A stretch of 50,358 bases of DNA from a virus (taxonomy: Duplodnaviria; Caudoviricetes). The DNA lies in IMG/VR virus record IMGVR_UViG_3300030106_006546, positions 1 to 50,358 of that record; one strand, written 5' to 3'. A program made the translations under genes and the position numbers. The notes below the pieces were generated by a model. The model was not told where the DNA came from and ran no database searches. It worked only from the letters and a program-made list of their open reading frames with translations. This document shows, piece by piece, positions 1 through 13,097 of this stretch. Numbering within the stretch: position 1 is the stretch's first letter; the number at the start of each line of letters is the position of its first letter.

Positions 1-99
1 CACCTTGGGTGTCAAATATATTTTTTCAAGAGCGGCTAGGGAAGGCTATGACGGCGTCGCTTTTGCCCCAGGGGAAGTGCATGAAAAACGATGGAAAAG
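1..99. repeat. Terminal direct repeat, left copy (assembly circularisation overlap)
   Basis: Bases 1-99 are identical to 50260-50358, and an ORF reads in frame across the junction. Confidence 0.97.
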
Positions 100-925
100 A
101 CCGGGGTTGATTGATGCCTACAATCAAACGATACCTTTTGCTATCAGTAAAGCTTTTAGCCCCGTTGAGAGCACGTTAAAGAAACCTAAAGACAAAACAA
201 TCACTGTTTCGGGGGAGCCAGGGAGCGACGAGGCTGGTGATTATACGAGCCGTGTGTATCTTTTGAATGAAAAAACCAAAGACGGTAAAACTATAGACGA
301 TAAAGCAAAGTCTCGACGCGGTATGTATACCATCCCCCCCGCAGGAATACTTGCTCTATCTCTCACGCCTTCTGAAGAGGCGGAGGCTCAAGAACAAAAG
401 CGTCAATCTCAAGAATTGCAGCGCACCTTTCCAGATCCCGAGGTGCGAGAAAGTGCAGGTATTTTAGGTGCTCTACGTGGTGCGGGTGAGGTCGCGTATG
501 AGGGACTATCAGATTTACTGATTGAGCCTTTTGTTGGTATGAGTGGCGCAGAGTTAGCATTTGAGTCAGGCGCAACCCCACAAGAGGCAGAGGCGGCAAA
601 GCGTCGTGCCATGCGTTTAGTAGACTTTGAGACGACCTCTCCTACAGGCCTACGTTACAAAGAAGCCGTGAAAAGCGGACTAGGTGACTTGGGCGAATAT
701 TTGATGAGTGAAGGTGAAAGAGGTCGCACAAGATCAGGTATGACGTTGCCGCCTAGTCGCGATGCTCTGCAATTACTTTTTCAAGAAGTGATTGATCCAG
801 CGGCAGAAGCAGTTACGGAAGGTGCGTTGGGTATATTGGGTTTGGACCCTAGAGACACAGAAGAAATGCAAAGGGTGCGACAAGAGGCTGCGCGGCCAGT
901 GATAGAAGCAATTCAGCCAATCTAA
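1..925 (+). CDS. C-terminal part of the origin-spanning ~1019-aa protein that starts at 48125
   Basis: The track ORF 5..925 is in frame with the open frame from 48125 through the 99-bp overlap. Contains the AAREGYDGVAF motif. Confidence 0.9.
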   Translation, partial: TLGVKYIFSRAAREGYDGVAFAPGEVHEKRWKRPGLIDAYNQTIPFAISKAFSPVESTLKKPKDKTITVSGEPGSDEAGDYTSRVYLLNEKTKDGKTIDDKAKSRRGMYTIPPAGILALSLTPSEEAEAQEQKRQSQELQRTFPDPEVRESAGILGALRGAGEVAYEGLSDLLIEPFVGMSGAELAFESGATPQEAEAAKRRAMRLVDFETTSPTGLRYKEAVKSGLGDLGEYLMSEGERGRTRSGMTLPPSRDALQLLFQEVIDPAAEAVTEGALGILGLDPRDTEEMQRVRQEAARPVIEAIQPI

Positions 926-927
926 AT

Positions 928-1128
928 TCATAGCTCCTCCAACCAAGACTGAAGCTTGCCCGCCTCAAATTTTTCGAAGGCAGTTTTCACCAGCTCAGGC
1001 TGACCCAGTCGCTCTGCTTCCGCATGAATGTCTGCTCGCTGACGTTTGCCACGTTCAAACACACGATGATCATCGCTGTACACAAAATACCAATCGTGAT
1101 CACGTAGCATTTGTTTCAGTTTATCCAT
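928..1128 (-). CDS. Small phage hypothetical protein (HDWYxxYSDD motif)
   Basis: 66-aa ORF with a GAGG RBS, overlapping the upstream gene; last gene of the leftward operon. Confidence 0.75.
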   Translation of the reverse strand: MDKLKQMLRDHDWYFVYSDDHRVFERGKRQRADIHAEAERLGQPELVKTAFEKFEAGKLQSWLEEL

Positions 1129-1342
1129 GAGACGCTACCTCAAACTCACTGAGTTTTTTCTCGATCGAGGTCCACAAACACTTCAGCTTGGATTCCTGGT
1201 CAGGGCTGAAAGCTTCATGTCGGAAACAGGTGCTCTCGATACCCCTCACACGCGGGTCATCAGAGCTCATCCGCATAAGGGTGTTGAGCAGCTCCAACTC
1301 CTCATTGGTAAACTGCAAATACTGTGTGCTAAGTAACGTCAT
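1121..1342 (-). CDS. Hypothetical protein directly downstream of the pentamer array
   Basis: 73-aa ORF with GGAGAG RBS upstream of the ATG. Confidence 0.65.
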   Translation of the reverse strand: MTLLSTQYLQFTNEELELLNTLMRMSSDDPRVRGIESTCFRHEAFSPDQESKLKCLWTSIEKKLSEFEVASHG

Positions 1343-1375
1343 TTTTGCTCTCCAGTCGTTTCTTCATATCAACTT

Positions 1376-1774
1376 TGACCTGCCATACCCAAGCGCACCT
1401 AATCACGCCTCAATGCAACTCGCGACAACCAACCCCACCACACCAGCCCTGCCGAGCCTTCCCCAAACCCATCTTGCCACACCTAACCGGGCCGCAAGGC
1501 ACCCGACAACGCCATGCAACACCTCGCCTGACCTGCCCTGCCTTGCCGTACCGTGACGGACCCCACCGTGCCGATTGCAACCCCGACCCGCCTGACCAGA
1601 CCTGCCCTGCCATAGCCAACCTCGCGCAACCACACGGAGACACGTCGTACCATACCTGCCTTACCGAATCCAAATCGACCTTGCCCTACCACAACAAAAC
1701 GGATCGTGAAGCACCCAACCCAAACATCCCAAAACTCACCTGACCTGCCAAGCCAAGCCTAACCCAACCTAACC
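1376..1774 (-). ncRNA. Phased GGY-NN pentamer array; candidate guide-RNA array (VIPR-like vrRNA)
   Basis: Counted by hand: 75 in-phase pentamers, 46 starting GGY and 72 with a pyrimidine at position 3. Six 4-nt GGC(A/T) phase breaks, each followed by GGT. Lies directly 3' of the RAMP-like operon. Confidence 0.85.
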
Positions 1775-2269
1775 GCCTTTGAGGTGCGTTTTGATTGGGT
1801 CAAGCACACCAGCCAACTCCGTCAGTTGGTCATACTTGTTTACAAATTGCTCAAGCTCTCGTTGTGCGTTTGCCAAAATTTGAGCCCTGAACTCAGGGTC
1901 TTTCATAGCCTCCACCGTTGAGACGTAAGAGCGCACGGTTTTTCCGAGATCGTTAGTGAGTGAAACACTCGTAAATACTCTTAATTTGGTAGGCGTGAAC
2001 GATTCAGGCACGTCAGCACTGGTCACATAAACCAAAGATCGTTTGATCTGTTTCTCAGTTGCCACCCGTTGTTTCTGTGCGGCGATCGAATCATCCCATT
2101 CAAAATCGTCGTGAAGAACAGAGTCGGGGTCGCGAGCGTGTTCGACCAGTTGTCCTGTGGGCGCGACACCACCCCATTGCTCATCGACAGCTCGTATTTC
2201 TTGTAACGCGAGATTGGGGTCTGCCTTGAAGACAGACCCCTTGGCCCACGCTACCGTGGTCACACTCAT
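1769..2269 (-). CDS. Accessory protein of the RAMP/pentamer-array locus (LHxxFEWDDxxAA family)
   Basis: 166 aa; start overlaps the stop of the RAMP-like gene (ATGA), and its stop codon lies within the first pentamers of the array. Confidence 0.8.
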   Translation of the reverse strand: MSVTTVAWAKGSVFKADPNLALQEIRAVDEQWGGVAPTGQLVEHARDPDSVLHDDFEWDDSIAAQKQRVATEKQIKRSLVYVTSADVPESFTPTKLRVFTSVSLTNDLGKTVRSYVSTVEAMKDPEFRAQILANAQRELEQFVNKYDQLTELAGVLDPIKTHLKGG

Positions 2270-2877
2270 GCCGCTTCCTCGAGAATGGCAAATTCACGAT
2301 CGAGTCGGAAGCGACCATACTCACCGCCTTTTTCGGGACGCCACTCACCTAGCCCGATGCCAAACCCGGCACGCTCAATCAAATTGAGAATGGCCGATTG
2401 CGTGAGTGCCTTTGAGTCATATTCGAACTTCAGCGTCATCGCCCACTGCATAAACTCAGGCCGATAGCGCAGGTCAGTCGATCCCGCACCAACCCTCACA
2501 ATGTCCTCGCGCATCTTAGGGTCATCGGTTTCCAGCGCGACAAGGTTTAGCTCAAAATCGTCAGGCCGAATGAACAACGATTTTTTGAGCAAGGTCTTTT
2601 CCAGCCCAATGTCTTTGTGAGCCGCACCGACTAAACAAGCTTTGATACCACCTGCTGGGAACCCGTAGCGCCCGTCACTCAACTTGTAACTGGCGTTACG
2701 GAACTCTTGTGCGGGGTCGCGCACGTCGCGATTCTTAACGCGAATCCCTGCGTGCTTATCCCTCAGCATTTGAAGCGCTTTCTCATCCCACTTGTGCTGA
2801 ATGAAAGGACTGGTGCCCTCGATCCGAACCGTCATCAAAGTTTTTTGAATTGGTTCAAGTGCTATTACATTACCCAT
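2266..2877 (-). CDS. Solitary RAMP/Cas7-like RNA-binding protein (Vipr-like)
   Basis: 203 aa with N-terminal strand plus SP (VRIEGTSPFIQH), a GFPAGGIKACL helix motif, YRPEF, and a C-terminal Gly-rich loop GFGIGLGEWRPEKGGEYGRF typical of RAMPs. AAGGAG RBS; no other cas genes present. Confidence 0.8.
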   Translation of the reverse strand: MGNVIALEPIQKTLMTVRIEGTSPFIQHKWDEKALQMLRDKHAGIRVKNRDVRDPAQEFRNASYKLSDGRYGFPAGGIKACLVGAAHKDIGLEKTLLKKSLFIRPDDFELNLVALETDDPKMREDIVRVGAGSTDLRYRPEFMQWAMTLKFEYDSKALTQSAILNLIERAGFGIGLGEWRPEKGGEYGRFRLDREFAILEEAA

Positions 2878-2955
2878 TTTGTATCTCCTTCGCCCGGGGG
2901 CGTACTGTTAGTTTTTTGCCTGGCAACTCCAGACAAAGCCGAACGTGGCACAGTA

Positions 2956-2972
2956 TGCGTGTCCATGTCAAC
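2956..2972 (-). promoter_or_regulatory. Leftward promoter of the RAMP operon: TTGACA plus phage motif variant (ACATGGACACGC)
   Basis: The minus strand reads GTTGACATGGACACGCA about 80 nt upstream of the start codon. Confidence 0.55.
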
Positions 2973-3016
2973 ACTTTTGCACAAAAAAATATTTCAATGT
3001 TTTTTGTATAAATATA

Positions 3017-3045
3017 TTGTACATCGACACGGAATATGATTTGAT
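3017..3045 (+). promoter_or_regulatory. Rightward promoter with phage motif TTGTACATCGACACGGA
   Basis: Follows an AT-rich tract; the same motif occurs at about 20070-20087 (-) and 39362-39379 (+). Confidence 0.55.
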
Positions 3046-3073
3046 GCGTTATGGAAATCAAACGGGGGTTGTT

Positions 3074-3241
3074 ATGTACATTGAATTGACGGATGACCAG
3101 GCAGACGTGCTGCTGAACCAAGTAGCCGACTGGAAGCACAAAGTCGTGAAAGGTAGTGATCTTCAACGACAGCTTCAGGAAATAGAAAAGGTTTTGGTTT
3201 TGGCTATTTTGCAAAAAGAGGGAGGCATCAATTATGGATAA
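3074..3241 (+). CDS. Hypothetical protein (55 aa)
   Basis: Likely ATG at 3074 after GGGGG, within track ORF 2945..3241. Confidence 0.6.
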   Translation: MYIELTDDQADVLLNQVADWKHKVVKGSDLQRQLQEIEKVLVLAILQKEGGINYG

Positions 3242-3470
3242 AGCAGCATTGAAAAAGCGGTTTTACAATCGTGTGCGTCGCACTTGTCTCAAGCACAACA
3301 TCGATATTGTGTACGATGGTGTGCCAAAGGCGGTATATGGCGTGGAGCTGGTGAAGGATGGTGTCGTGATGTTTGCCGATCGCACAAACGACAACATGCC
3401 GCTCGACATCAACTGGCAACGACTGCATGAAGAGATGACCGACTACGGTTACAAAGGTGGTGTGAAATGA
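3234..3470 (+). CDS. Hypothetical protein
   Basis: 78 aa, GGAGG RBS, overlaps both neighbours. Confidence 0.75.
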   Translation: MDKAALKKRFYNRVRRTCLKHNIDIVYDGVPKAVYGVELVKDGVVMFADRTNDNMPLDINWQRLHEEMTDYGYKGGVK

Positions 3471-3877
3471 GCATTCCAGAAAAACCAGTTTGGCTATCCC
3501 AGAAATTTAAGGTCTCAAAAATGACGCGAGGCTGGCATCCGAGTCTTAGGGGGTGCTTGTTAATTCAGTGCGCCAACGAAGATCACAAGCTAGAGGTCTG
3601 GTACTCCCCCAACGGAGAAACAGCCAGCGATTATGGCTGGTTAGATGTGAGATCCGCAGTCAACCGAGAAAAACCAGTTTGGCTATCCAGCAAATTCAAG
3701 GTCTCAAATTTTACGCAAGGTTGGCAACCAGATCTTGGGGGGTGCTTGGTAAGTGAGTGCGCCAACGAGGATCACAAGCTACAAATCTGGTACTCCCCGA
3801 ACGGAGAAACAGGCAGCAGTTATGGCTGGTTAGAAATTTCTTCCGCAGTCAACGAGAAAGGCATCAAGGACGTGTGA
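3467..3877 (+). CDS. Hypothetical protein made of two tandem 63-aa repeats
   Basis: EKPVWLS...CANEDHKL..WYSPNGET...YGWL...SAVN occurs twice; 189-bp DNA period (3478 and 3667). Confidence 0.75.
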   Translation: MSIPEKPVWLSQKFKVSKMTRGWHPSLRGCLLIQCANEDHKLEVWYSPNGETASDYGWLDVRSAVNREKPVWLSSKFKVSNFTQGWQPDLGGCLVSECANEDHKLQIWYSPNGETGSSYGWLEISSAVNEKGIKDV

Positions 3878-3878
3878 A

Positions 3879-4667
3879 ATGAGTGGACCGTATAAGCAAA
3901 TCAACAACATCTACGGTTACATTCGCGTGTCCACGGATGAGCAGGTCAAGTCGGGCATTTCGCTCGAAACCCAGATGCAACAGATCAGCGAGTTTGTGCG
4001 CGAGAAGTATAACCGTAAGGTCACGCAGTTTTTTGCTGATGAAGGCATCAGTGGTACTCACGCGGTTTTAGATCGTCCCGCAAGCCGTGAAATGACCGAC
4101 GTCATTGATGAGCACGATGTCGTTATTTGCACTAGGCTTGATCGATTAAGCCGATCAAGTTCTGATTTATTATCGCTTATTCCGCAACTCCAAGAGATCG
4201 GAATCACTTTGTTTTTCTGCGAGCAGTTTGGTGAAATGCCGATCGTTTACCCCGATGCTGTCAAAACAAAGGGTTTAGATGCGAAGTTTGACATGAATCA
4301 CATGGCCAATCAGATCATGTTGATGGTACTGTCTGCCGTCGCCGAGATTGAACATGCGACGATTAAAGACCGTTTTTCAGCGGGTAAACTGGACTGGGCG
4401 TCACGCGGGTATGCGATCGGTGGATCACCACCCTACGGATTCCGCCATGTAGAGGTCAAGACGGGAAGCAAAACCCGCAAGCTTTTGGAAGAAGTGCCTG
4501 AAGAGCAAGCTGTCTTGAAAACCATCTACCGTCTGCACAAGCGTGGCTTGGGTCCACGCAAGATAGCAACGCAGGTCAATAGCTTGCACGACATCCCACC
4601 GCTGACACATTCGAAAGTTCAGCGCATTCTCAACCGCAAGTTTCAAGGTTTGCCTAAAGCCGCGTAG
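3879..4667 (+). CDS. Serine recombinase (resolvase/invertase catalytic domain plus short C-terminal DNA-binding region)
   Basis: YGYIRVST catalytic motif, DEGISG, LDRLSRS, GGSPPYGF. Confidence 0.92.
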   Translation: MSGPYKQINNIYGYIRVSTDEQVKSGISLETQMQQISEFVREKYNRKVTQFFADEGISGTHAVLDRPASREMTDVIDEHDVVICTRLDRLSRSSSDLLSLIPQLQEIGITLFFCEQFGEMPIVYPDAVKTKGLDAKFDMNHMANQIMLMVLSAVAEIEHATIKDRFSAGKLDWASRGYAIGGSPPYGFRHVEVKTGSKTRKLLEEVPEEQAVLKTIYRLHKRGLGPRKIATQVNSLHDIPPLTHSKVQRILNRKFQGLPKAA

Positions 4668-4699
4668 CGTCTATGATGGTGGCTCCAAGGGGGCCACCT

Positions 4700-4834
4700 A
4701 TGACACCAGAAGAGCACATCGCTGAAACGATCAAAATCCTCGAGGATTCTCTCGCTACTGATTTCATGACGGATTCAGTGCGCGATATTATGACGCGCGC
4801 TGTCGAACACCTGAAAGCCACACAAGGTAGCTAA
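4700..4834 (+). CDS. Small hypothetical protein (44 aa, MTPEEHIAETIKILEDSLATDF...)
   Basis: Translated by hand; AAGGGGG RBS; TAA overlaps the next ATG. Confidence 0.6.
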   Translation: MTPEEHIAETIKILEDSLATDFMTDSVRDIMTRAVEHLKATQGS

Positions 4835-5490
4835 TGTCAGATGAGACGCTGACAGGCTGGGGTCGCGGCACTTGGGGTGAGGCGGCCTGGGGTACACCGT
4901 TACCCGTAGAGCCCACTGGTCTTGCCGCAACGCTGGGCGTTGGCTCTGTTTCCGTTCTCGCCAAAGCGAATGTTATACCCACAGGCCAAGTCGCAACGGC
5001 TTCACCTGGCTCGATTCAAATAGTCGCCAAAGCGATCACACAAATCAGCACAGGCGTCGGTGCAACCGCCGCAATCGGCTCTGTCACGGCCGTAGCAAAA
5101 GCGACTGCGTCACCCGCGGGCTTGGCCGTCACAACCGGGGTCGGAACTCTCACCACAACGGGTTTGGCAAATATTGTTCTCGATGGGCAACAAACCACCG
5201 CCGCGTTCGGTGAAATACAAACTGTCGCTAAGGCTTTGATCCAGGTGACGGGCAACGGAATCACCACGAATATTGGCAACACGCTAGTTTATGGGGAGAT
5301 AGACACCTCTCAGTCGCCAAACTACACTACGATTGATGATAGCCAGACCGCGAGTTTTGCTGAGATCAGCACAAGTCAAACACCCAGCTTTGTGACGGTG
5401 GATGATAGTCAGTCAGCGAGTTACTCAAACGTCAGCACAAGTCAAACGCCCAATTATCAGGAACTAGATGCTGGGCGATCAGCAGCATAG
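4834..5490 (+). CDS. Putative virion/tail protein, Thr/Gly/Ala-rich
   Basis: WGRGTWGEAAWG N-terminal motif and C-terminal 11-aa SQxxx[YF] repeats; precedes the tail fibre. Confidence 0.7.
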   Translation: MSDETLTGWGRGTWGEAAWGTPLPVEPTGLAATLGVGSVSVLAKANVIPTGQVATASPGSIQIVAKAITQISTGVGATAAIGSVTAVAKATASPAGLAVTTGVGTLTTTGLANIVLDGQQTTAAFGEIQTVAKALIQVTGNGITTNIGNTLVYGEIDTSQSPNYTTIDDSQTASFAEISTSQTPSFVTVDDSQSASYSNVSTSQTPNYQELDAGRSAA

Positions 5491-5505
5491 CAGCGAGGTT
5501 AAGGC

Positions 5506-8292
5506 ATGGCAGTTTACACAAACGATTTACGATTAACAGAACTCGCCACGGGGGAAGGCTCGGGCACATGGGGCACGACAACGAATACCAACCTGTCGCT
5601 CATCGCAGACTCGTTTGGGTTCGGTACAGAGGCGATTACCACAAACGCCGATACTCACACCACTACGATAGCAGACGGCAGCGCCGATGCGGGTCGAGCG
5701 ATTTTTCTAAAATACACAGGCACTCTCGACTCGACCTGCACGATTACGATCGGCCCAAACACCGTCTCAAAGCTTTGGTTTATTGAGAATGCAACGAGCG
5801 GCTCTCAAAGCATCATAATTAAGCAAGGCTCAGGGGCCACAGTCACAATTGCGAATGGTCAGACAAAGGCCATTTATTCAGACGGCGCTGGCTCAGGCGG
5901 TGCGATGATCGATGCGCTGCAAGACCTATCAGTGCCTGATTTGTTTATTGATGATGATCTGACCTTTACATCTGACAGCGCGGTTATCACATTCGGCGCA
6001 GATGGCGACACCACTCTTACGCACACAGACGGCTCTGGCCTCACGCTTAACAGCACCAACAAAATCATGTTCAACGATGCGAGTCAATTCATTCAAGGCT
6101 CGTCTGCCACGGTCTTGTCTTTAGGCGCTACCGATGAGATTGACCTGACAGCCACCGCGATTGATGTAAACGGCACGATGGATGTTAGTGGCGCGTTGAC
6201 GGGCACAACTGCGACCTTTACAACCGCAGACAACTCATCTCAGTTGACCTTAAAATCAACTGATGCTGACTCGTCCATTGGCCCTCGCTTGGATTTAATT
6301 AGAGATAGTGCTTCTCCCGCTGACGGTGATTTTGCTGGGCAAATTCGATTTTTAGGAGATAACGATGCTGGTGAGCAAGTTGACTATGCCTTTATTCGAA
6401 CAAAACTTGTAGATGTCAGTGACGGTTCTGAAGATGGTCAGATGGATATCACTGCAAAACTTAATGGTTCAGATCGAACCCGCATAAGAATTAATAGTTC
6501 AGAATTAATTATAAACGATGATAGTGATGATTTAGATTTCCGCGTTGAGTCGGACGGAAGCACTCATGCTTTATTTTTGCAAGCGTCAGATGGAAATTTC
6601 GGCATCGGCACTAGCGCGCCGACTCAAAAATTACAAGTACAAGGCGGTATTCGAATTGGAGATACCATATCAGATGTTGCAGACGACGGGAGACCAATTA
6701 TATATGCAAGTGATGGTAGTGGGTCGCACACAGGTCACGCCCTTGTAATTCAGGCAAGAGATGGTACAGGTTCAGAGATTGACTTTGTAACTGGGACAAC
6801 ACCCACAACACGCATGCATATCGATTCTAGCGGAAATGTCGGTATCGGCACCACATCACCCTCTACGGCCTTGGACGTAAGTGGTGCGGCAACAATTACA
6901 ACCGCAGGCAACACCGCTCAGTTAGTTTTGAAGTCAACCGACGCTGATGCAAATGTTGGTCCTCGCTTAGATTTAACAAGGGATAGTGCAAGTCCTGCTG
7001 ACGGTGATATTGCTGGGCAAATACGATTTCAAGCAGACAACGACGCGGGGACGGAAACTACTTTTGGTCATATCCGAGCGACACTAGATGATGTTAGTGA
7101 CGGCTCTGAAGATGTCACTTTAGATATACAAACCATCTTGGCTGGGACAATCAGAAGTCGGGTAAAAATAAACTCTACGGAGACGGTTTTAAACGACAAC
7201 TCTCAAGACCTAGATTTCCGTGTTGAGTCTGATACCAAAACTCACATGCTTTTTGTAGACGCTGGCAATGATCGTATTGGTATTGGCTGTGACAGTCCAG
7301 ATGAGGTTGTACATATACAAGGTGGCGGCAATGGAAAAATAATTGTTGAACAGGGTAGCGCCCCTCGTGGAAATTATTTTGGTATCAATGGCGGAGATAA
7401 CATAGAAATAGCCGCTGATGAAGATAACTTAGGTGCTAACAGTACTATACGCTTTAGGGTTGATGCCTCAGAAAAAGTAAGAATTAGTACTGGTGGCGAC
7501 TTGCTGGTTGGTAAGACTTCCTCCTCAACAGGCACCGCAGGCTTTGAAGCAAGAGATGATGGTCAGACTGTTGCAACTATTGATGGTGGAACGGCTCTTA
7601 TTGCTAATCGCTTAACATCGGATGGCGATGTTGTAAAGGTTATGAAAGACGGCACCACGGTCGGCACGCTTGGTAGCTTCTCTGGCTCAAAAGTTTTCAT
7701 TGGTTCACCTTCGTCAGCAGGTGCAGTATTTGCTACCAACGGCGTTATGCCTGTCACAGACGGTTCACTTGCGGACAACGCTCACGATTTAGGACAAAGT
7801 TCTGCACGCTGGAAAGACCTCTACCTGTCAGGCGGTGCATACCTAGGCGGCACAGGTTCAGCCAATCTGTTGAATGACTATGAAGAAGGGTCGTGGACGC
7901 CTGCGGCTGATTTTGCAACTACCTCTCCAACATCAGGCGCTACAACAGGAACAGGCCGTTATATAAAAGTAGGTAATGTAGTTACTGTATGGGCTACTGT
8001 TTCAAACTTTAATGTAACTGGTGCGGCTGGTGATTTAAAAATAACAGGCTTGCCTTTTACTGCCCGCACACTAGACGCTCTACAAAGATACAACGGAGTC
8101 GTCAGGATAACTAATTGCGATTTTTCAGGCTTTACCAGTCCAATTCAAGTAAACAGCCAAGTTCTTGATAGCGCATCAGCAGTGACATTTATGGTCATTA
8201 GAGACAATACAAGCTCAGATAGTATTGGTGCAAACGAATTAAGTAACGGCGTATCAGATGTAAACTTTACGCTTACTTATGAAGCGGCCTAA
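5506..8292 (+). CDS. Tail fibre / receptor-binding protein
   Basis: 928 aa; N-terminal GTWGTTTNTN anchor, GNVGIGTTSP-type repeats, a duplicated SASPADGD...DFRVESD module, and a DYEEGSWTP C-terminal domain. Confidence 0.88.
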   Translation: MAVYTNDLRLTELATGEGSGTWGTTTNTNLSLIADSFGFGTEAITTNADTHTTTIADGSADAGRAIFLKYTGTLDSTCTITIGPNTVSKLWFIENATSGSQSIIIKQGSGATVTIANGQTKAIYSDGAGSGGAMIDALQDLSVPDLFIDDDLTFTSDSAVITFGADGDTTLTHTDGSGLTLNSTNKIMFNDASQFIQGSSATVLSLGATDEIDLTATAIDVNGTMDVSGALTGTTATFTTADNSSQLTLKSTDADSSIGPRLDLIRDSASPADGDFAGQIRFLGDNDAGEQVDYAFIRTKLVDVSDGSEDGQMDITAKLNGSDRTRIRINSSELIINDDSDDLDFRVESDGSTHALFLQASDGNFGIGTSAPTQKLQVQGGIRIGDTISDVADDGRPIIYASDGSGSHTGHALVIQARDGTGSEIDFVTGTTPTTRMHIDSSGNVGIGTTSPSTALDVSGAATITTAGNTAQLVLKSTDADANVGPRLDLTRDSASPADGDIAGQIRFQADNDAGTETTFGHIRATLDDVSDGSEDVTLDIQTILAGTIRSRVKINSTETVLNDNSQDLDFRVESDTKTHMLFVDAGNDRIGIGCDSPDEVVHIQGGGNGKIIVEQGSAPRGNYFGINGGDNIEIAADEDNLGANSTIRFRVDASEKVRISTGGDLLVGKTSSSTGTAGFEARDDGQTVATIDGGTALIANRLTSDGDVVKVMKDGTTVGTLGSFSGSKVFIGSPSSAGAVFATNGVMPVTDGSLADNAHDLGQSSARWKDLYLSGGAYLGGTGSANLLNDYEEGSWTPAADFATTSPTSGATTGTGRYIKVGNVVTVWATVSNFNVTGAAGDLKITGLPFTARTLDALQRYNGVVRITNCDFSGFTSPIQVNSQVLDSASAVTFMVIRDNTSSDSIGANELSNGVSDVNFTLTYEAA

Positions 8293-8334
8293 TTATCTCA
8301 AGTGGATTCTTGAGACGGACTAAAGGAGAAAACA

Positions 8335-8559
8335 ATGGCATTAACTAAAAGCGTAACAGCAGACAAAGTAGAAGTAGTCACAGGACAAGACGAAGACGGC
8401 AACGACGTAACCTCTGTTCAAGTACGGACTGCTACTAAGGTACTCGAAGACGGAGAAGTAATTTCATCAAGCTATCACCGTCATGTAATTCAATCAGGTG
8501 ACGACTGGTCATCTGAACCATCTAACGTGCAGGCTATCTGCAACGCAGTATTTAGCTAA
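8335..8559 (+). CDS. Small tail-fibre-associated protein
   Basis: 74 aa; AGGAG RBS; VQVRTAT...YHRHV motif; follows the fibre gene. Confidence 0.7.
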   Translation: MALTKSVTADKVEVVTGQDEDGNDVTSVQVRTATKVLEDGEVISSSYHRHVIQSGDDWSSEPSNVQAICNAVFS

Positions 8560-8570
8560 GGAGTTAAACA

Positions 8571-8876
8571 ATGGCTACATGGACTATAGCTAACCTTGAG
8601 CGTAACGTGGCAGACGGCGGTGTAACCATTGCACACTGGCGTGTTACTGAATCTGAAACTGTAGGTGAAGATACTTTTACCGCTTCTACTTACGGTACGT
8701 GTGGTTTCACCCCTGACGCTTCTGCTTCTGATTTTGTCGCTTACAACGACCTAACAGAATCTACTGTATTAGGTTGGGTACACGCAGAAGTTGATAAAGA
8801 TGCTACTGAGGCGGCACTCACAGCAAATATTGCAACGCAAAAAAATCCTGTGTCTGCCGAGGGTGTACCGTGGTGA
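8571..8876 (+). CDS. Conserved phage protein, tail-fibre associated
   Basis: 101 aa; AAGGAG RBS; ends GVPW. Confidence 0.7.
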   Translation: MATWTIANLERNVADGGVTIAHWRVTESETVGEDTFTASTYGTCGFTPDASASDFVAYNDLTESTVLGWVHAEVDKDATEAALTANIATQKNPVSAEGVPW

Positions 8877-9043
8877 TACGATTGGATCTCGAAAGTGCAG
8901 AAATAAACGCCATCCTCCAAGTTTTGGGAGATTTGCCTTCAAAGACAGGCGCTTGGCCGCTGATGATAAAAATTAAAGCGCAAGCAGAAGCTCAAACAGA
9001 AAGTGAAGAGATAGAGCCAGTAGAAGAAGATCAACCTGAGTAG
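8873..9043 (+). CDS. Small hypothetical protein (56 aa, MIRLDLESAEINAILQVLGDLP...)
   Basis: Translated by hand; GTG overlaps the previous TGA. Confidence 0.6.
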   Translation: MIRLDLESAEINAILQVLGDLPSKTGAWPLMIKIKAQAEAQTESEEIEPVEEDQPE

Positions 9044-9057
9044 CCTGGCAGGGCTGC

Positions 9058-9243
9058 ATGGAAGCGGTGCTTTTGATTTTGATACTCGAAGGGAGCACTG
9101 TAGCTTATGTAGGGTATAGAGTCGTGCCACACACGGTATGTATATACAAGGAGTCAGAAACGGGGAAAAAGCACACTTACTATGTGCGCTCCGCACTCTA
9201 TCGATGCCCAAAGTGGCTTTGGCTTAAAAATGAAGGGAGATAA
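9058..9243 (+). CDS. Hypothetical protein
   Basis: 61-aa ORF that fills the gap in the operon. Confidence 0.5.
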   Translation: MEAVLLILILEGSTVAYVGYRVVPHTVCIYKESETGKKHTYYVRSALYRCPKWLWLKNEGR

Positions 9244-9245
9244 CG

Positions 9246-9410
9246 ATGGAAACATTAGCTAACGCTTTGATTACGGTGACATCAATTGTGACTGTCGCAA
9301 GCTTGATAGCGGCGAGCACGCCGACGCCCGTCGATGATGGTTGGATCAAAAAGTTGTATGGATATTTGGATCTTTTGGCCCTGAATATTGGACGCGCAAA
9401 AGACAAATAA
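9246..9410 (+). CDS. Small membrane protein, holin-like (TPTPxDD motif)
   Basis: Translated by hand as METLANALITVTSIVTVASLIAASTPTPVDDGW...; GGGAG RBS. Confidence 0.65.
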   Translation: METLANALITVTSIVTVASLIAASTPTPVDDGWIKKLYGYLDLLALNIGRAKDK

Positions 9411-9422
9411 TATGATGTCGTA

Positions 9423-9605
9423 ATGGATACCAGCGAAAAAGCTTTGCAAGAAATACACACTCATGCGCGCGAGTGTGATCTACGGTATCAGCAAATTAAC
9501 TATCAGCTTGAGCGCGGCTCAAAAAGATTCGATCGTTTAGAGGCGATGATCTGGGGCGTTTATGTGACTGTGATTATCGCTGTCGCATTGCCTCAATTTT
9601 TGTAA
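9423..9605 (+). CDS. Coiled-coil protein with C-terminal transmembrane helix (lysis region)
   Basis: 60 aa with a hydrophobic C-terminus. Confidence 0.65.
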   Translation: MDTSEKALQEIHTHARECDLRYQQINYQLERGSKRFDRLEAMIWGVYVTVIIAVALPQFL

Positions 9606-9623
9606 CTAGTACAGGGGGGCCAT

Positions 9624-10076
9624 ATGATAATCGAGTCGATCGTCGCCGCCTCTGCTATTTTGAATCAAATCAACCAGATGGTTGCGACAGCCAATGAAAC
9701 TGGCCAAGGCATACAAAATGTAATGGGCTTGATTTCAGACTTTGGTGAAGGTCTGAATGAATTTGAAGCAAAGCGCAGAGAGTCTACCTTCAAGCCGCTA
9801 TCAAATGATGAGCTATTAAAGCTACAAATGCTCAAGCGTCAGTATGAACGCCACTGGAAATCCGTGCATGACTTGCTGGCTATGGTTGATCCAGAGCTGC
9901 TTCAGCAGTTCCAAGAAGCGAAAGCGCAACAAGAACGCGACCGTAAAGCGCATTTCGAAATGCTTAGAAAAAAACGAAAAGAGCGCGAAGAGTTCATTGA
10001 AGCTACTTTGATTATCAGCCTTGTGGTCGCTTTGGGCGGCGGTGTACTTTTTATGACGTTGTGGCTTATTTTTTAA
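9624..10076 (+). CDS. Membrane-anchored hypothetical protein
   Basis: 150 aa with a C-terminal TM segment. Confidence 0.7.
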   Translation: MIIESIVAASAILNQINQMVATANETGQGIQNVMGLISDFGEGLNEFEAKRRESTFKPLSNDELLKLQMLKRQYERHWKSVHDLLAMVDPELLQQFQEAKAQQERDRKAHFEMLRKKRKEREEFIEATLIISLVVALGGGVLFMTLWLIF

Positions 10077-10108
10077 ACCAGCGCGCAACACTAATTTGAG
10101 GACTTGTT

Positions 10109-10444
10109 ATGGCCGCAAAAAAATTGGAAGAAAACAGTGATTACGCAGAGTATGACTCTGATGGCGACGGGATTGTTACAGATGAGGAGCTGGAGACCAG
10201 CAAAGAGTTGCAAGAGCTGAGGCTCCGACATGAGAGGGCTGATGCTCAAAGAGCGATGAGCTGGTTTGCGCTTTGGGGTATGCTTTTGTATCCCTCGCTG
10301 GTCGTGGCGAGTGAGTTTTTCGGATTGACTCAAGCGGCCGCGATTTTAGGGGCTATGGCCAGTGTATACTTTGTGAGTGTTGCAGGGATACTGGCGGCCT
10401 TCTTCGGCGCCCAGGCGTGGTCTAATCGATCAAACGGGAAATGA
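10109..10444 (+). CDS. Putative holin with an EF-hand-like N-terminal loop
   Basis: DSDGDGIVTDEE loop followed by two TM segments; upstream of the spanins and lysozyme. Confidence 0.6.
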   Translation: MAAKKLEENSDYAEYDSDGDGIVTDEELETSKELQELRLRHERADAQRAMSWFALWGMLLYPSLVVASEFFGLTQAAAILGAMASVYFVSVAGILAAFFGAQAWSNRSNGK

Positions 10445-10445
10445 T

Positions 10446-10844
10446 ATGTGGCAAGTTTCAGGTTTATTGAGCGTGGCTTTGATCGTGACAGGCGGCGCGT
10501 TCAAACTCTACGCTGATAAAACTGAGGCCGAAAAATCACAACTACGCAGTGAGCTGCGAATATCTGCTGACAATCAACTGGTGTTAGAAAGCAGCATTAC
10601 AAACCTGAACTCTCAACTCATCGCTGCCGAAAATCGTTTAGAAAAAATATTAGATCGTGTGAACGATTTGCAGATCGAAAATGCTCAAGCACAAGCAGAA
10701 GTAGAAAGCGTTAGGTCTAAATTTGCAAAACACGACATGAGCGTCCTGTCTTTGAGAAAGCCAGGCTTGATTGAAAATATTATCAACCGGGGAACCAAGG
10801 AGGTCTTACGTGATTTGGAGACTGTTACCGATCCTTCTAATTAG
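10446..10844 (+). CDS. Putative i-spanin (Rz-like)
   Basis: N-terminal TM segment plus coiled coil; overlaps a lipoprotein gene. Confidence 0.65.
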   Translation: MWQVSGLLSVALIVTGGAFKLYADKTEAEKSQLRSELRISADNQLVLESSITNLNSQLIAAENRLEKILDRVNDLQIENAQAQAEVESVRSKFAKHDMSVLSLRKPGLIENIINRGTKEVLRDLETVTDPSN

Positions 10845-11220
10845 TGGTTGTAGTATTTTTGAGCGAACACCATACATTCCTGAGACAAAACCCGTCGAAA
10901 TCGTTACGATCACTGAACCTGCGCCTATCTATCACCCCGCTTTACCAAACGCAATTACGACCAGCCCAGTTGAATGGAAGGTTTTGACACCTGAAACTAT
11001 GCAAGAATATTTGGAAGATCTCGAGGCTGGCAACGCGCCTACAAATGCCTATTACGGACTATCTACAAAAGGCTATGAAAACCTTTCAAGCAACATGGCC
11101 GAGGTCAAACGGTATATCCGTCAAGTATTGAATATTATAGACTACTATAGAAATATAGACTCAGGGACTGACGATGAGAGTGACGAGCAGCGAAGGAATC
11201 GCACTGATAAAGAAATTTGA
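10810..11220 (+). CDS. Putative o-spanin (Rz1-like lipoprotein)
   Basis: Lipobox LLISGC, Pro-rich; likely GTG start at 10810. Confidence 0.65.
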   Translation: MIWRLLPILLISGCSIFERTPYIPETKPVEIVTITEPAPIYHPALPNAITTSPVEWKVLTPETMQEYLEDLEAGNAPTNAYYGLSTKGYENLSSNMAEVKRYIRQVLNIIDYYRNIDSGTDDESDEQRRNRTDKEI

Positions 11221-11620
11221 AGGGTGTGAGCTTGAAGCTTACCAGTGCTCTGCGAATGTTTGGACACTCGGTTATGGACATACTGCTGGCGTGTCAGAGG
11301 GCGATACATGCACAGAGGAAGACGCTGAAACCATGTTGGCTGAAGACCTTCAAGAGTTTGAGAATTATGTCAATGATTTGGTGACTTCTGACTTGTCACA
11401 AAACGAGTTTGATGCCTTAGTCGCGTGGACCTACAACTTGGGCCCGGGCGCTTTGAAAGAATCCACTTTGTTACGCAGACTCAACGACGGCGACTATGAG
11501 GATGTGCCTCATCAGATCAAACGCTGGAATCGCGCGGGCGGCGAGGTACTACCTGGTCTAACTCGCCGTCGAGAAGCAGAGGCTTTATTGTTCCAGGGAG
11601 AGCCTTGGGAGGATGTCTGA
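11174..11620 (+). CDS. Endolysin, phage lysozyme (GH24)
   Basis: FEGC..AYQC...WTLGYGHT and GLTRRREAE motifs. Confidence 0.95.
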   Translation: MRVTSSEGIALIKKFEGCELEAYQCSANVWTLGYGHTAGVSEGDTCTEEDAETMLAEDLQEFENYVNDLVTSDLSQNEFDALVAWTYNLGPGALKESTLLRRLNDGDYEDVPHQIKRWNRAGGEVLPGLTRRREAEALLFQGEPWEDV

Positions 11621-13097
11621 GCTATCGCTCAAAGACTTTGAGATCCTCAGTGAACAGGATCAAAACGAGGCGCTTGCCCTCCTCTCACGTTTCGATCAAA
11701 TGGAGAAACAAGAGAAGTGCCAAGGTGACTTCATCGAGTTTGTCAAACACATGTGGCCTGAGTGTATCCTGGGGCGCCACCACAAAATCATCGGCGACAA
11801 GTTTAATAAGATAGCTCAAGGCAAGCTCAAGCGTTTGATTGTCTGTCTGCCCCCCAGACACTCCAAATCAGAGTTTGCTTCGACGTATTTCCCTGCGTGG
11901 ATGATGGGATTGAAGGGCGATCTGAAGATCATACAAACCACGCACACCGCAGAACTCGCGGTGCGATTCGGTCGTAAGGTTAGAAACTTGATCGACTCTG
12001 ACGATTACTCGCAAGTATTCCCAGAGCTGAAGCTAGAAGCCGATAACAAATCGGCGGGCCGATGGACAACCAACCAAGACGGTGAAAGTTTTTATGCAGG
12101 TGTGGGTGGTGCAATTACGGGTCGAGGTGCTGACCTGCTAATCATTGACGATCCCCACTCGGAGCAAGACGCATTGTCACCGACTGCGATGGAGTCCGCG
12201 TATGAGTGGTACACATCAGGACCACGTCAGCGTTTGCAGCCTGGTGGCATCATCATCATCGTCATGACGCGATGGAGCACAAAAGATTTGGTCGGCAAAG
12301 TCCTGAAAAAGCAAGGCGACGATCATGCAGATCAATGGGAGGTCATTGAGTTCCCAGCGATCATGCCCGAGTCAGATACACCCTTATGGCCTGAGTTTTG
12401 GAAAAAAGACGAGTTGCTTTCAGTAAAAGCTTCACTGCCAGTTAGCAAGTGGAACTCTCAGTGGATGCAAAATCCCACCGCTGAGGCGGGGTCTATCGTC
12501 AAACGCGAGTGGTGGCGGCGTTGGGAGCCTGATTATGTACCAGGGTACGACTACGTCATACAGAGCTACGATACGGCGTTCAGCAAAAAAGAGACCGCCG
12601 ACTACTCCGCTATCACGACTTGGGCGATTTTTCATTCGCCCGATGACGACGTAGAGTCAATTATCTTACTTGATGCAAAACGAGTGCGAATGGATTTTCC
12701 AGAGCTGAAGCGATTGGCTTACGATGAATATAAATACTGGGAGCCCGATTGTATCCTGATTGAAGCAAAAGCTAGTGGTACGCCTTTGACACAAGAGCTG
12801 AGGCGCATGGGTATCCCAGTGACAAGCTATACACCTTCGCGTGGGCAAGATAAGATCGCCAGAATGAACTCTGTTGCTCCGATCTTCGAAAGCGGCATGG
12901 TATGGGCGCCTTGTGAAAGTTTTGCCGATGAGGTGATCGAAGAGATGGCAAGCTTTCCGTTCGGCGATAATGACGATTACTGCGATAGTGCTACTATGGC
13001 TTTGATGCGGTTTCGCCAAGGTGGGTTTTTGGCCTTACAGGACGATTACCCTGAAGAGGTCCAACTGCTCCGTGCAAATAGACAGGTGTATTACTGA
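11613..13097 (+). CDS. terL: Terminase large subunit
   Basis: PPRHSKS Walker A variant, LLIIDDP Walker B, and a C-terminal RNase H-like nuclease (SYDTA, DDYCD). Confidence 0.95.
   Translation: MSELSLKDFEILSEQDQNEALALLSRFDQMEKQEKCQGDFIEFVKHMWPECILGRHHKIIGDKFNKIAQGKLKRLIVCLPPRHSKSEFASTYFPAWMMGLKGDLKIIQTTHTAELAVRFGRKVRNLIDSDDYSQVFPELKLEADNKSAGRWTTNQDGESFYAGVGGAITGRGADLLIIDDPHSEQDALSPTAMESAYEWYTSGPRQRLQPGGIIIIVMTRWSTKDLVGKVLKKQGDDHADQWEVIEFPAIMPESDTPLWPEFWKKDELLSVKASLPVSKWNSQWMQNPTAEAGSIVKREWWRRWEPDYVPGYDYVIQSYDTAFSKKETADYSAITTWAIFHSPDDDVESIILLDAKRVRMDFPELKRLAYDEYKYWEPDCILIEAKASGTPLTQELRRMGIPVTSYTPSRGQDKIARMNSVAPIFESGMVWAPCESFADEVIEEMASFPFGDNDDYCDSATMALMRFRQGGFLALQDDYPEEVQLLRANRQVYY

What the first reader, a model, noticed from the sequence alone, without database searches (positions are those of the whole stretch)
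1376..2877. Candidate non-CRISPR RNA-guided system: solitary RAMP/Cas7-like gene, accessory gene and a phased GGY-NN pentamer array
Seen: one minus-strand operon encodes a 203-aa protein with RAMP hallmarks (C-terminal GIGLGEWRPEKGGEYGRF Gly-loop) and a coupled 166-aa protein, followed immediately by 399 nt of non-coding sequence with exact 5-nt periodicity. No cas1/2/3/5/6, nuclease gene or CRISPR repeat-spacer array is present. Established: Cas7-family RAMPs polymerise along RNA with a fixed nucleotide step. Inference: one protomer binds each 5-mer, gripping the conserved GGY and exposing the variable NN for pairing, so the guide information is non-contiguous. With no nuclease, the likely output is DNA binding or transcriptional silencing, for example of competing phages or host genes. 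This resembles what I recall being reported recently as VIPR (Viral Interference Programmable Repeat) systems; that name match is from memory and should be verified.
Basis: partly seen in the sequence, partly recalled or inferred. Interest (0 to 1): 0.97.

Follow-up and report, generated by a model that had tools for sequence, protein, structure and literature searches.

The report
Marine phage VIPR RNA-guided silencing locus

Summary
The locus is real and is a VIPR (Viral Interference Programmable Repeat) system in a complete 50,358-bp marine tailed phage.

**Vipr protein.** The 203-aa protein is a sequence homologue of the solved SUSP1 Vipr protein (PDB 36pp; E 9e-9 alone, 8e-14 as a profile). 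The residues that grip GG in SUSP1 are kept.

**Accessory protein.** The overlapping 166-aa gene sits where a vap gene sits. It belongs to a different family from SUSP1 vap1.

**Repeat tract.** The tract (1380-1774, minus strand) is not one exact 5-nt phase. It is a staggered array of six GGYNN blocks of 6, 18, 11, 14, 18 and 13 units. Each block ends in GGCAG (one in GGCTG), and that last G is the first G of the next block. Of 80 units, 51 are clean GGY (shuffles 6.8 ± 2.4).

**Relatives.** 69 of 71 related viral loci carry such arrays on the vipr strand, against 1 of 71 on the other strand. 175 of 183 junctions end in GGCAG. Whole blocks are gained and lost between close relatives and in other marine metagenomes.

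**Not shown here.** No target was found for any guide. Transcription, RNA binding and the fold could not be tested.

**Verdict.** New member of a known kind, of moderate interest.

The parts
2266..2877 (-). vipr gene, 203 aa. Stand-alone RAMP-family Vipr protein. G-loop at residues about 171-190, thumb arginines R137/R139, and H28.
   Evidence: ORF. phmmer hit to PDB 36pp_D 'SUSP1 Vipr protein' at E 9.2e-9; profile of 45 relatives at E 8.4e-14. BLASTP to SUSP1 agp039: 23% identity, E 7e-14. Both proteins fall in phrog_4652. Key residues kept in 40-45 of 45 relatives.
2884..2890 (-). Shine-Dalgarno-like AAGGAGA, 6 nt before the vipr ATG.
   Evidence: Read directly from the sequence. No sigma-70-type promoter was called on this strand. 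The promoter is not located.
1769..2269 (-). vap-position accessory gene, 166 aa, translationally coupled to vipr (ATGA overlap). Its family is distinct from SUSP1 vap1.
   Evidence: ORF. phrog_15946 at E 1.5e-17, whereas SUSP1 vap1 is phrog_5926. No BLASTP or hhalign similarity to vap1. No Pfam, NCBIfam or PDB relative. A homologue lies downstream of vipr on the same strand in 61 of 71 related loci. It is homologous to Mycobacterium phage Saal gp52 (hhalign 99.5%, E 1.2e-22).
1380..1774 (-). Staggered vrRNA array: 80 pentamer units in six registers, each register overlapping the next by 1 nt.
   Evidence: The architecture matches the legend of fig. S18 of 10.64898/2026.04.26.720920.
1745..1774 (-). 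Block 1: 6 units, all GGY, ending in GGCAG. It overlaps the last codon and the stop of vap. It is conserved in relatives whose other blocks differ.
   Evidence: It is 92-97% identical in L002, L003 and L006-L008, while vipr is 76% identical at nucleotide level in L006-L008.
1656..1745 (-). Block 2: 18 units, 9 of them clean GGY, ending in GGCAG.
1602..1656 (-). Block 3: 11 units, 6 of them clean GGY, ending in GGCAG GGCAG. Absent as one 54-nt cassette in L003.
1533..1602 (-). Block 4: 14 units, 11 of them clean GGY, ending in GGCAG GGCAG. Absent as one 69-nt cassette in L002 and in contigs of two other marine studies.
   Evidence: The joint 1529->1599 skips 69 nt in runs X4 and X10.
1444..1533 (-). 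Block 5: 18 units, 12 of them clean GGY, ending in GGCAG GGCTG.
1380..1444 (-). Block 6: 13 units, 7 of them clean GGY, ending in GGCAG. This is the end of the array.
   Evidence: A contig of run X10 skips 1376->1438.
928..1342 (-). Two small co-oriented ORFs (73 and 66 aa) directly after the array. They may be co-transcribed. Their function is unknown and their membership in the system is not shown.
   Evidence: ORFs. The same two ORFs follow the array in L002 and L003. No family, apart from a weak phrog_16661 hit.

Best explanation
The minus-strand unit 1380-2890 is a VIPR system of a marine tailed phage.

**Shown here**
- The 203-aa protein is a homologue of the structurally solved SUSP1 Vipr.
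- The accessory gene occupies the vap position.
- The downstream tract is a staggered array of six GGYNN blocks.

**Inferred by homology with SUSP1**
- The operon is transcribed through the array.
- Vipr protomers polymerise on the RNA, one per pentamer. H28, R139, E178, W179 and R180 hold the two Gs and the pyrimidine, and the two variable bases are presented.
- Each block yields one guide of 6-18 units that pairs with double-stranded DNA by the rule 'two bases read, one skipped'.
- Binding blocks transcription of a competing phage, satellite or prophage.

**My own inference**
- The -1 register slip at each GGCAG|G junction ends one filament and starts the next, and so defines the guide boundaries.
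- Arrays diversify by loss, gain and replacement of whole blocks through recombination between the repeated junction units.
- The 166-aa protein probably assists at the DNA. Its action is unknown.
For: **Homology to Vipr**
- PDB 36pp_D 'SUSP1 Vipr protein' is the only significant hit: E 9.2e-9 over residues 14-190, and E 8.4e-14 with a 45-sequence profile.
- BLASTP to the SUSP1 gene product gives E 7e-14. Both proteins fall in phrog_4652.

**Contact residues**
- The SUSP1 contacts named in 10.64898/2026.04.26.720927 section 5 (H17, R138, D177, W178, R179) align to H28, R139, E178, W179 and R180.
- These are kept in 42, 45, 45, 40 and 45 of 45 relatives.

**Locus layout**
- SUSP1 has the same order: vipr, then vap, then an intergenic array.
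- My caller recovers SUSP1's one upstream and three downstream arrays, which serves as a positive control.

**The array**
- 51 of 80 units are GGY, against 6.8 ± 2.4 in shuffles.
- All seven minus-strand calls in the window lie within 1380-1774. The only others are two marginal 4-unit runs on the plus strand.

**Linkage in relatives**
- In 71 related viral loci there are 511 calls (3787 units) on the vipr strand, against 12 calls (49 units) on the other strand.
- 69 of 71 loci against 1 of 71 have a call of at least 5 units.
- 175 of 183 one-base-overlap junctions end in GGCAG, a unit that makes up only 129 of 3276 non-terminal units.

**Cassette behaviour**
- L002 lacks exactly block 4 (69 nt) and L003 lacks block 3 (54 nt).
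- Contigs of two other marine studies show the same 69-nt skip. One contig carries about 59 extra nt at the block 2/3 junction.
- All three lengths have the form 5n-1.
- In L006-L008, vipr is 76% and vap 69% identical at nucleotide level, yet blocks 2-6 give alignments of 35 nt or less.

**Context**
- The record is a complete phage with terminase, portal, tail fibre and primase-helicase.
- It has no Cas1, no Cas2 and no CRISPR-like repeats.
Against: - **No target found.** No site in the phage itself or in the 71 related loci exceeded shuffled-guide nulls.
- **Collection scans gave only chance-level hits.** Seed hits from seven viral-contig scans extended no better than chance. Two metagenome scans found nothing. 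These scans needed exact seeds of 16-22 bases, so they were insensitive.
- **Many degenerate units.** 29 of 80 units depart from GGY, far more than in relatives such as L021, L023, L027 and L034, whose blocks are nearly perfect. Parts of the array may be decaying.
- **No NN bias in recent substitutions.** Against the two nearest relatives, substitutions are not concentrated in the NN positions. For L002 they number 4, 4, 9, 3 and 1 at positions 1-5. For L003 they number 8, 7, 8, 12 and 6.
- **Transcription not shown.** The single RNA-library run that holds any of the locus gave one 162-nt contig over the vipr/vap boundary and nothing over the array.
Confidence: 0.9

Rival explanations
1. The system is a decaying or partly inactive VIPR relic. 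The genes are intact, but several blocks have drifted too far from GGY to load Vipr. The array is then mostly a fossil and the phage gains little from it.
For: - Only 51 of 80 units are clean GGY. Blocks 2, 3 and 6 have 9/18, 6/11 and 7/13, while several relatives have near-perfect blocks.
- No target was found.
- Substitutions against L002 and L003 fall on G positions as often as on NN positions.
Against: - Both ORFs are intact and all GG-contact residues are kept.
- Within blocks there are no small indels against L002 and L003 despite 21 and 41 substitutions, so the register is preserved.
- Position 3 is a pyrimidine in 77/80 units and position 1 is G in 70/80.
- The locus is found, with cassette variants, in marine runs from several studies.
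Confidence: 0.07
2. The periodic tract is not a guide array but some other G-rich element. Candidates are a DNA-level structure such as an origin, iterons, a recombination site or G-quadruplex DNA, or a glycine-rich coding region. Under this reading its position beside the RAMP-like gene is incidental.
For: - Open frames of 69-132 aa run through the tract on both strands.
- No Rfam family matches.
- No transcript over the tract was seen.
Against: - A 5-nt period with -1 slips is incompatible with one reading frame.
- The tract is strand-specific and tied to vipr in 69 of 71 related loci, against 1 of 71 on the opposite strand. These loci include phages of Mycobacterium and Gordonia.
- In SUSP1, tracts of this repeat form were shown by the authors to be transcribed and bound by Vipr.
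Confidence: 0.02
3. The locus is a degenerate or minimal CRISPR-Cas remnant: a solitary Cas7 whose CRISPR array and other cas genes were lost.
For: The protein has RAMP-type hallmarks, a glycine-rich loop and a thumb arginine, by alignment to Vipr.
Against: - No PDB Cas5, Cas6 or Cas7 chain is hit by sequence or profile. Only SUSP1 Vipr is hit.
- No Pfam Cas family matches.
- There is no Cas1, no Cas2 and no repeat-spacer array in the complete genome.
- The repeat unit is 5 nt, not 24-48 nt.
Confidence: 0.01

Closest known systems
Type II VIPR of Escherichia phage SUSP1 (vipr agp039, vap1 agp038; PDB 36pp). Source: bioRxiv 10.64898/2026.04.26.720920, 10.64898/2026.04.26.720927 and 10.64898/2026.10.15.759431.
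   Same: - Homologous Vipr protein with the same GG-contact residues.
- Two-gene operon followed by GGYNN arrays on the same strand.
- Phage-borne, with no cas genes.
   Different: - Vipr is only 23% identical. It has a 4-residue insertion in the G-loop (PEKGGEYGRF here against PRFGRF).
- The accessory protein belongs to another family (phrog_15946 against phrog_5926) with no detectable similarity to vap1.
- SUSP1 has separate vrRNAs of about 100 nt, each with a conserved structured 3' tail, one of them upstream of vipr. Here the blocks abut with a 1-nt overlap, have no tail, and none lies upstream.
Staggered vrRNA arrays of other VIPR types (legend of fig. S18 in 10.64898/2026.04.26.720920).
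   Same: Adjacent vrRNAs share one nucleotide, so the end of one marks the start of the next. That is the arrangement seen here and in 183 junctions of related loci.
   Different: - I saw only the legend. The figure and supplementary data were not seen, so I cannot say which of the seven types this is or whether this clade is the one shown.
- The GGCAG terminal unit and the cassette polymorphism are not mentioned in the main-text passages I read or searched.
Unannotated locus of Mycobacterium phage Saal and its relatives (Cheoctovirus), gp51-gp52, and Gordonia phages such as ODay and UmaThurman.
   Same: - Vipr homologue at 37-41% identity.
- gp52 belongs to the same accessory family (hhalign 99.5%; tblastn hits in 27 Mycobacterium and 5 Gordonia phages).
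- Staggered GGCNN blocks ending in GGCAG.
   Different: - In Saal the array lies upstream of vipr and the blocks are nearly perfect.
- The host is an actinobacterium and the phage is temperate, with the locus beside the immunity genes.
- All these genes are annotated as hypothetical proteins.
Class 1 CRISPR-Cas backbone proteins (Cas7-family RAMPs).
   Same: According to the VIPR papers, the shared features are an RRM core, a G-loop and a thumb, polymerisation along a guide RNA with a fixed step, and periodic unpaired guide positions.
   Different: - The step is 5 nt with 2 read bases, rather than 6 nt with 5 read.
- The guide information is non-contiguous.
- There is no repeat-spacer array, no Cas1/Cas2 and no other cas gene.
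- There is no sequence-level hit to any Cas protein.

Membership tests
VIPR system | A Vipr protein homologous to the founding Vipr proteins. | tested here: met
   PDB 36pp_D SUSP1 Vipr at E 9.2e-9; profile at E 8.4e-14; BLASTP at E 7e-14. Both proteins fall in phrog_4652.
VIPR system | RAMP fold: RRM core, glycine-rich loop and thumb. | not testable with these tools
Support comes from alignment only. The G-loop and the thumb YRP motif align to the solved SUSP1 chain.
VIPR system | Residues that recognise G1, G2 and Y3 of each repeat (SUSP1 H17, R138, D177, W178, R179). | tested here: met
   They align to H28, R139, E178 (a conservative D->E change), W179 and R180. These are kept in 42, 45, 45, 40 and 45 of 45 relatives.
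VIPR system | Adjacent same-strand array of GGY/NN (YNNGG) pentamers with at least 4 units. | tested here: met
   Six blocks of 6-18 units, with 51 of 80 units clean GGY against 6.8 ± 2.4 in shuffles. In relatives, 69 of 71 loci carry such arrays.
VIPR system | Minimal locus of vipr plus one vap gene, without cas genes or a CRISPR array. | tested here: met
   The two ORFs are coupled. No Cas1 or Cas2 match. No spaced repeats. Other cas families were not searched one by one.
VIPR system | Viral or proviral location. | tested here: met
   Complete virus record with direct terminal repeats. Terminase, portal and tail fibre are present.
VIPR system | vrRNAs are transcribed and bound by Vipr. | not testable with these tools
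   One metatranscriptome run gave a single 162-nt contig at 2130-2291 and nothing over the array.
VIPR system | Guides have natural targets under the 1-nt skip rule (at least 80% NN match). | tested here: inconclusive
   No hit rose above the nulls in the phage itself or in 71 related loci. Seed scans of viral contigs gave only chance-level extensions. Two metagenome scans returned 0. The searches needed exact seeds and the host is unknown.
Type II VIPR (SUSP1 / P. fulva clade) | A vap1 accessory gene. | tested here: not met
   No BLASTP alignment. hhalign probability is 0.1%. The two proteins fall in different PHROGs. In the phage collection vap1 occurs only in 118 enterobacterial phage records.
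Type II VIPR (SUSP1 / P. fulva clade) | Separate vrRNAs, each with a conserved structured 3' tail. | tested here: not met
   The blocks abut with a 1-nt overlap and there is no non-repeat tail between them.
VIPR with staggered arrays (type number unknown) | Successive vrRNAs overlap by 1 nt. | tested here: met
   The window has five junctions, four of the form GGCAG|G and one GGCTG|G. Relatives have 183 such junctions. The legend of fig. S18 describes this arrangement.
Class 1 CRISPR-Cas | A repeat-spacer array, an adaptation module and several cas genes. | tested here: not met
   No Cas family was found in Pfam or in the PDB searches.

The most novel reading that the evidence does not exclude
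In this Vipr clade the guides are cassettes bounded by a dedicated terminal unit, GGCAG, whose last G starts the next guide.

The repeated junctions would do two jobs:
- set the guide boundaries, through a -1 register break that stops one Vipr filament and starts the next;
- act as recombination sites through which whole guides are lost, gained and exchanged between co-circulating phages.

That would be a Cas1-independent way of renewing an RNA-guided repertoire. The 166-aa partner, found with this clade from marine phages to mycobacteriophages, would be an accessory factor with no known fold or family. It may lie outside the described vap1-6.
Probability: 0.3. Interest if true: 0.55.

Novelty: new member of a known kind. 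Interest (0 to 1): 0.35.

Why it matters
VIPR was described only in 2026. It is presented as a minimal RNA-guided DNA-binding system that may predate CRISPR.

- **Wider range.** This locus extends the family to an uncultured marine phage and shows the staggered-array form in detail.
- **Junction signature.** The conserved GGCAG junction unit (175 of 183 junctions) is a simple sequence signature for calling guide boundaries in this clade.
- **Repertoire change.** Block-wise presence and absence between close relatives and across marine metagenomes gives a first view of how such guide repertoires change in nature.
- **A bench system.** The accessory family is shared with mycobacteriophages of the Saal group, which grow on the laboratory strain M. 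smegmatis mc2 155, so this subtype can be studied at the bench.

None of this changes the published picture of how VIPR works.

Tried and rejected
**Target search under the 1-nt skip rule**
- Self plus 71 related loci, 945,164 bases on both strands. The best NN identities for guides 2-6 were 0.58, 0.73, 0.68, 0.61 and 0.65. None was above the 95th percentile of 100 shuffled guides. Guide 1 (12 informative bases) reached 12/12, but so did the null.
- Viral contigs:

| Guide and units | Specified bases | Hits |
|---|---|---|
| Guide 4, 11 units | 22 | 0 |
| Guide 4, units 1-9 | 16 | 6 |
| Guide 5, units 1-9 | 16 | 7 |
| Guide 5, units 9-16 | 16 | 15 |
| Guide 6 | 16 | 8 |
| Guide 2 | 16 | 2 |
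| Guide 3 | 16 | 29 |

- Full-guide rescoring of every hit gave at most 0.68, 0.64, 0.73, 0.67 and 0.86 for guides 4, 5, 6, 2 and 3.
- The 0.86 for guide 3 is 16 seeded bases plus 3 of the 6 remaining. Seven of 29 hits reached it, which is about what chance gives. For five of those seven hits the only open frame of at least 80 aa over the site puts the skipped base at codon position 1. For the other two, overlapping frames leave it ambiguous.
- Metagenome contigs returned 0 and 0.
- The 3' halves of guides 2, 4 and 6 were not scanned, and guide 1 was too short to scan.

**Host**
- The genome-contig scan gave 9 loci in MAGs of many phyla. The best was 73% identity on a 31.8-kb contig of a Sphingobacteriales MAG. 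This is not a reliable host call. The Shine-Dalgarno site before vipr argues mildly against a Bacteroidota host; that point rests on my own knowledge.

**Other checks that led nowhere**
- Megablast of window 1-12000 against the phage collection found no match.
- Rfam found no family in 900-3300.
- The promoter and terminator scan found nothing convincing on the minus strand.
- Tandem Repeats Finder saw only a 10-nt period at 1753-1774.
- Accessory protein: Pfam, NCBIfam, a PDB profile, the ESM Atlas and a 5.8-billion-protein search (199 hits; the 120 listed are unnamed or called 'hypothetical' apart from one named 'prophage DNA circulation protein', and none has a Pfam domain) gave no functional clue.
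- RNA evidence: run X20 held one 162-nt contig at 2130-2291. This is no evidence for or against transcription of the array.
- NN hypervariability among the nearest relatives was not seen.

- Structure prediction, so no fold and no fold search.
- Complex prediction.
- The search of earlier findings.

**Paper supplements**
- These were not opened, as they were stated to be closed. Type assignments, the vap1-6 definitions and the list of 664 loci may already include this clade.
Full report
**What is there**

The window is a complete virus record of 50,358 bp with direct terminal repeats. It encodes a large terminase, a portal, a tail fibre, a virion structural protein, a primase-helicase and a serine recombinase, nearly all on the plus strand.

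Against this orientation, one minus-strand unit holds the following:
- a 203-aa ORF (2266-2877), preceded by an AAGGAGA ribosome-binding site;
- a 166-aa ORF (1769-2269), whose ATG overlaps the first gene's TGA;
- a G-rich tract;
- two small ORFs (1121-1342 and 928-1128).

**The periodic tract**

The period is real: G autocorrelation is 0.35, 0.335, 0.22 and 0.23 at lags 5, 10, 15 and 20. The phase drifts, however, so Fourier power at period 5 over the whole tract is below the shuffle mean.

Written as pentamers, the tract (1774 down to 1380) falls into six registers of 6, 18, 11, 14, 18 and 13 units. Each register ends in GGCAG (one in GGCTG), and that last G is also the first G of the next register.
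- 51 of the 80 units are clean GGY, against 6.8 ± 2.4 (maximum 17) in 5000 shuffles.
- Position 1 is G in 70 units, position 2 is G in 58, and position 3 is a pyrimidine in 77.
- Positions 4 and 5 are close to uniform.
- I chose the segmentation after seeing the sequence, but the excess is far beyond what that choice could produce.

The same caller finds nothing comparable elsewhere in the window on either strand. Only two 4-unit runs turn up. The first unit overlaps the last sense codon and the stop codon of the 166-aa gene.

**The name is real**

A full-text search found three 2026 bioRxiv preprints on Viral Interference Programmable Repeat systems.

From 10.64898/2026.04.26.720920 I read the Results, Discussion and Methods sections 18, 20, 26 and 27, plus several supplementary figure legends printed in the main file. 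It reports:
- a stand-alone RAMP protein, Vipr;
- usually one accessory gene, vap;
- vrRNAs of 9-16 YNNGG repeats in which GGY is conserved and NN specifies the target;
- recognition of double-stranded DNA with one skipped base per unit;
- transcriptional silencing of competing phages and satellites;
- seven types with six vap families;
- array forms that include 'staggered arrays with overlapping vrRNAs'.

The fig. S18 legend says that neighbouring vrRNAs derive from positions overlapping by 1 nt.

From 10.64898/2026.04.26.720927 I read the abstract and section 5. One protomer binds one repeat. H17, R138, D177, W178 and R179 hold the GGY bases.

From 10.64898/2026.10.15.759431 I read the abstract, section 17 and some passages.

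I did not see supplementary tables or data.

**Is the protein a Vipr?**

By sequence, yes.
- The only significant hit among all PDB chains is 36pp_D, 'SUSP1 Vipr protein'. The score is E 9.2e-9 over residues 14-190, rising to 8.4e-14 with a profile of 45 relatives.
- I located the SUSP1 gene in NC_028808. BLASTP gives 23% identity and E 7e-14.
- Both proteins fall in phrog_4652.
- The five SUSP1 contact residues align to H28, R139, E178, W179 and R180. These are kept in 42, 45, 45, 40 and 45 of 45 relatives.
- This clade carries a four-residue insertion in the G-loop.
- Pfam and NCBIfam have no model for it.

**The accessory gene**

SUSP1 has the same order: vipr, then vap1, then an intergenic array. 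The 166-aa protein, however, is not vap1.
- There is no BLASTP alignment.
- hhalign probability is 0.1%.
- The two fall in different PHROGs.
- In the phage collection, vap1 occurs in 118 records, all enterobacterial and all at least 95% identical.
- The window's family occurs in 32 records, 27 Mycobacterium and 5 Gordonia phages. One search counts the same numbers (27 and 5) among the Vipr hits, and its listed Mycobacterium and Gordonia rows have 37-41% identity.
- Saal gp52 matches the family profile at 99.5% probability and E 1.2e-22.

The family has at least 199 members in a 5.8-billion-protein collection. None of the 120 listed has a Pfam domain, and only one carries a name other than 'hypothetical protein' ('prophage DNA circulation protein'). 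It has no solved relative. Its function is unknown. The paper says that vap proteins 'appear to be involved in DNA interaction'.

**Linkage in relatives**

A scan of viral contigs gave 71 loci that encode relatives at 29-100% identity.
- My caller made 511 calls (3787 units) on the vipr strand, against 12 calls (49 units) on the opposite strand.
- 69 of 71 loci have a same-strand run of at least 5 units, against 1 of 71 on the other strand.
- The two exceptions are L031, which ends 135 nt after the gene, and L069.
- A homologue of the 166-aa protein lies downstream on the same strand in 61 of 71 loci.
- As a positive control, the caller recovers SUSP1's one upstream and three downstream arrays.

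Relatives such as L021, L023, L027 and L034 have almost perfect GGCNN blocks, each ending in GGCAG with the 1-nt overlap. Over all loci, 175 of 183 such junctions end in GGCAG. That unit makes up 129 of 3276 non-terminal units.

**Blocks behave as cassettes**

- L002 (Vipr 100% identical) lacks exactly block 4, 69 nt. L003 (99% identical) lacks block 3, 54 nt.
- Contigs from marine metagenomes of other studies show the same 69-nt skip in runs X4 and X10.
- They also show a net 54-nt replacement in X4, loss of the last block in X10, and about 59 extra nt at the block 2/3 junction in X3.
- 54, 59 and 69 all have the form 5n-1, as expected for whole staggered blocks.
- In L006-L008, vipr and vap are 76% and 69% identical at nucleotide level. 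Block 1 is 92-96% identical there, yet blocks 2-6 give alignments of 35 nt or less.

So the guide region turns over faster than the genes, while the first block is unusually conserved.

**What speaks against a fully working system, or was not found**

- 29 of 80 units are degenerate, many more than in several relatives.
- Substitutions against L002 and L003 are not enriched at NN positions.
- I found no target. Nothing exceeded shuffled-guide nulls in the phage itself or in the related loci.
- Seed hits from seven viral-contig scans extended no better than chance.
- Two metagenome scans returned nothing.
- These scans required exact seeds. The paper's own searches tolerated 20% mismatch, so absence here is weak evidence.
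- The host is unknown.
- The phage is marine. Twenty runs from eleven studies labelled marine or seawater metagenome hold the stretch or part of it, and two of them may be the source sample.
- Transcription was not shown.

**How it most likely works**

*Shown:* homology to Vipr, the conserved contact residues, the staggered GGYNN array, and its tight strand-specific linkage to vipr.

*Inferred from SUSP1:*
- The operon transcript is coated by Vipr, one protomer per pentamer.
- NN pairs are displayed and read DNA as two bases on, one base off.
- The bound complex blocks transcription of a competing element.

*My inference:*
- The -1 slip at GGCAG|G breaks the filament register and so sets the guide ends.
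- The repeated junctions serve as recombination points for cassette turnover.

**Verdict**

The system belongs to a kind already in print, so it is a new member rather than a new kind.

The modest additions are:
- the GGCAG junction signature;
- cassette polymorphism in natural populations;
- a conserved first block;
- an accessory family, distinct from vap1, that is shared with cultivable mycobacteriophages.

Noticed in passing
L021:3613-6271 and L072:3445-5313: Some relatives carry very large, nearly perfect staggered arrays. L021 has about 33 blocks in three tracts around the accessory gene, and almost every block ends in GGCAG. That is far larger than the six degenerate blocks of the window.
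   Followed up: partly
L123:2101-2347 (Mycobacterium phage Saal, record 36588-36834): A staggered GGCNN array lies just upstream of the Vipr homologue gp51 and runs into the annotated start of that CDS (locus 2336). The protein match begins only at 2501, so the annotated start is probably too far upstream. The locus sits beside the immunity repressor, the antirepressor and the excisionase.
   Followed up: partly
window 1745-1774: Block 1 overlaps the vap stop codon. It is more conserved between relatives (92-97% identical) than the genes around it (vipr 76% at nucleotide level in L006-L008). It may be a conserved guide, or a leader or nucleation element.
   Followed up: partly
window 3467-3877 (+): A 136-aa ORF made of two tandem copies of a module of about 65 aa, each beginning EKPVWLS.KFKVS. 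It lies just upstream of the serine recombinase gene (3879-4667, phrog_95 / phrog_125).
   Followed up: no
window 4834-5490 (+) and 5506-8292 (+): Both ORFs hold internal repeats. The first has DNA repeats spaced 66-69 nt at 4941-5104. The second is a 928-aa tail-fibre-like protein in which a segment of about 200 aa is duplicated.
   Followed up: no
window 2884-2890 (-): A strong Shine-Dalgarno site lies before vipr. This sits awkwardly with the only binned relative, which is on a Sphingobacteriales MAG contig (L076), and suggests that contig is a phage contig binned by chance.
   Followed up: no
L099, L100, L104, L105, L107-L109, L111: Eight viral contigs from different samples share one conserved site that matches units 9-16 of guide 5 exactly; six of them also match unit 18, and five (L100, L104, L105, L108, L109) match nothing else. 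Full-guide identity is 0.56-0.61, which is below any target threshold.
   Followed up: partly
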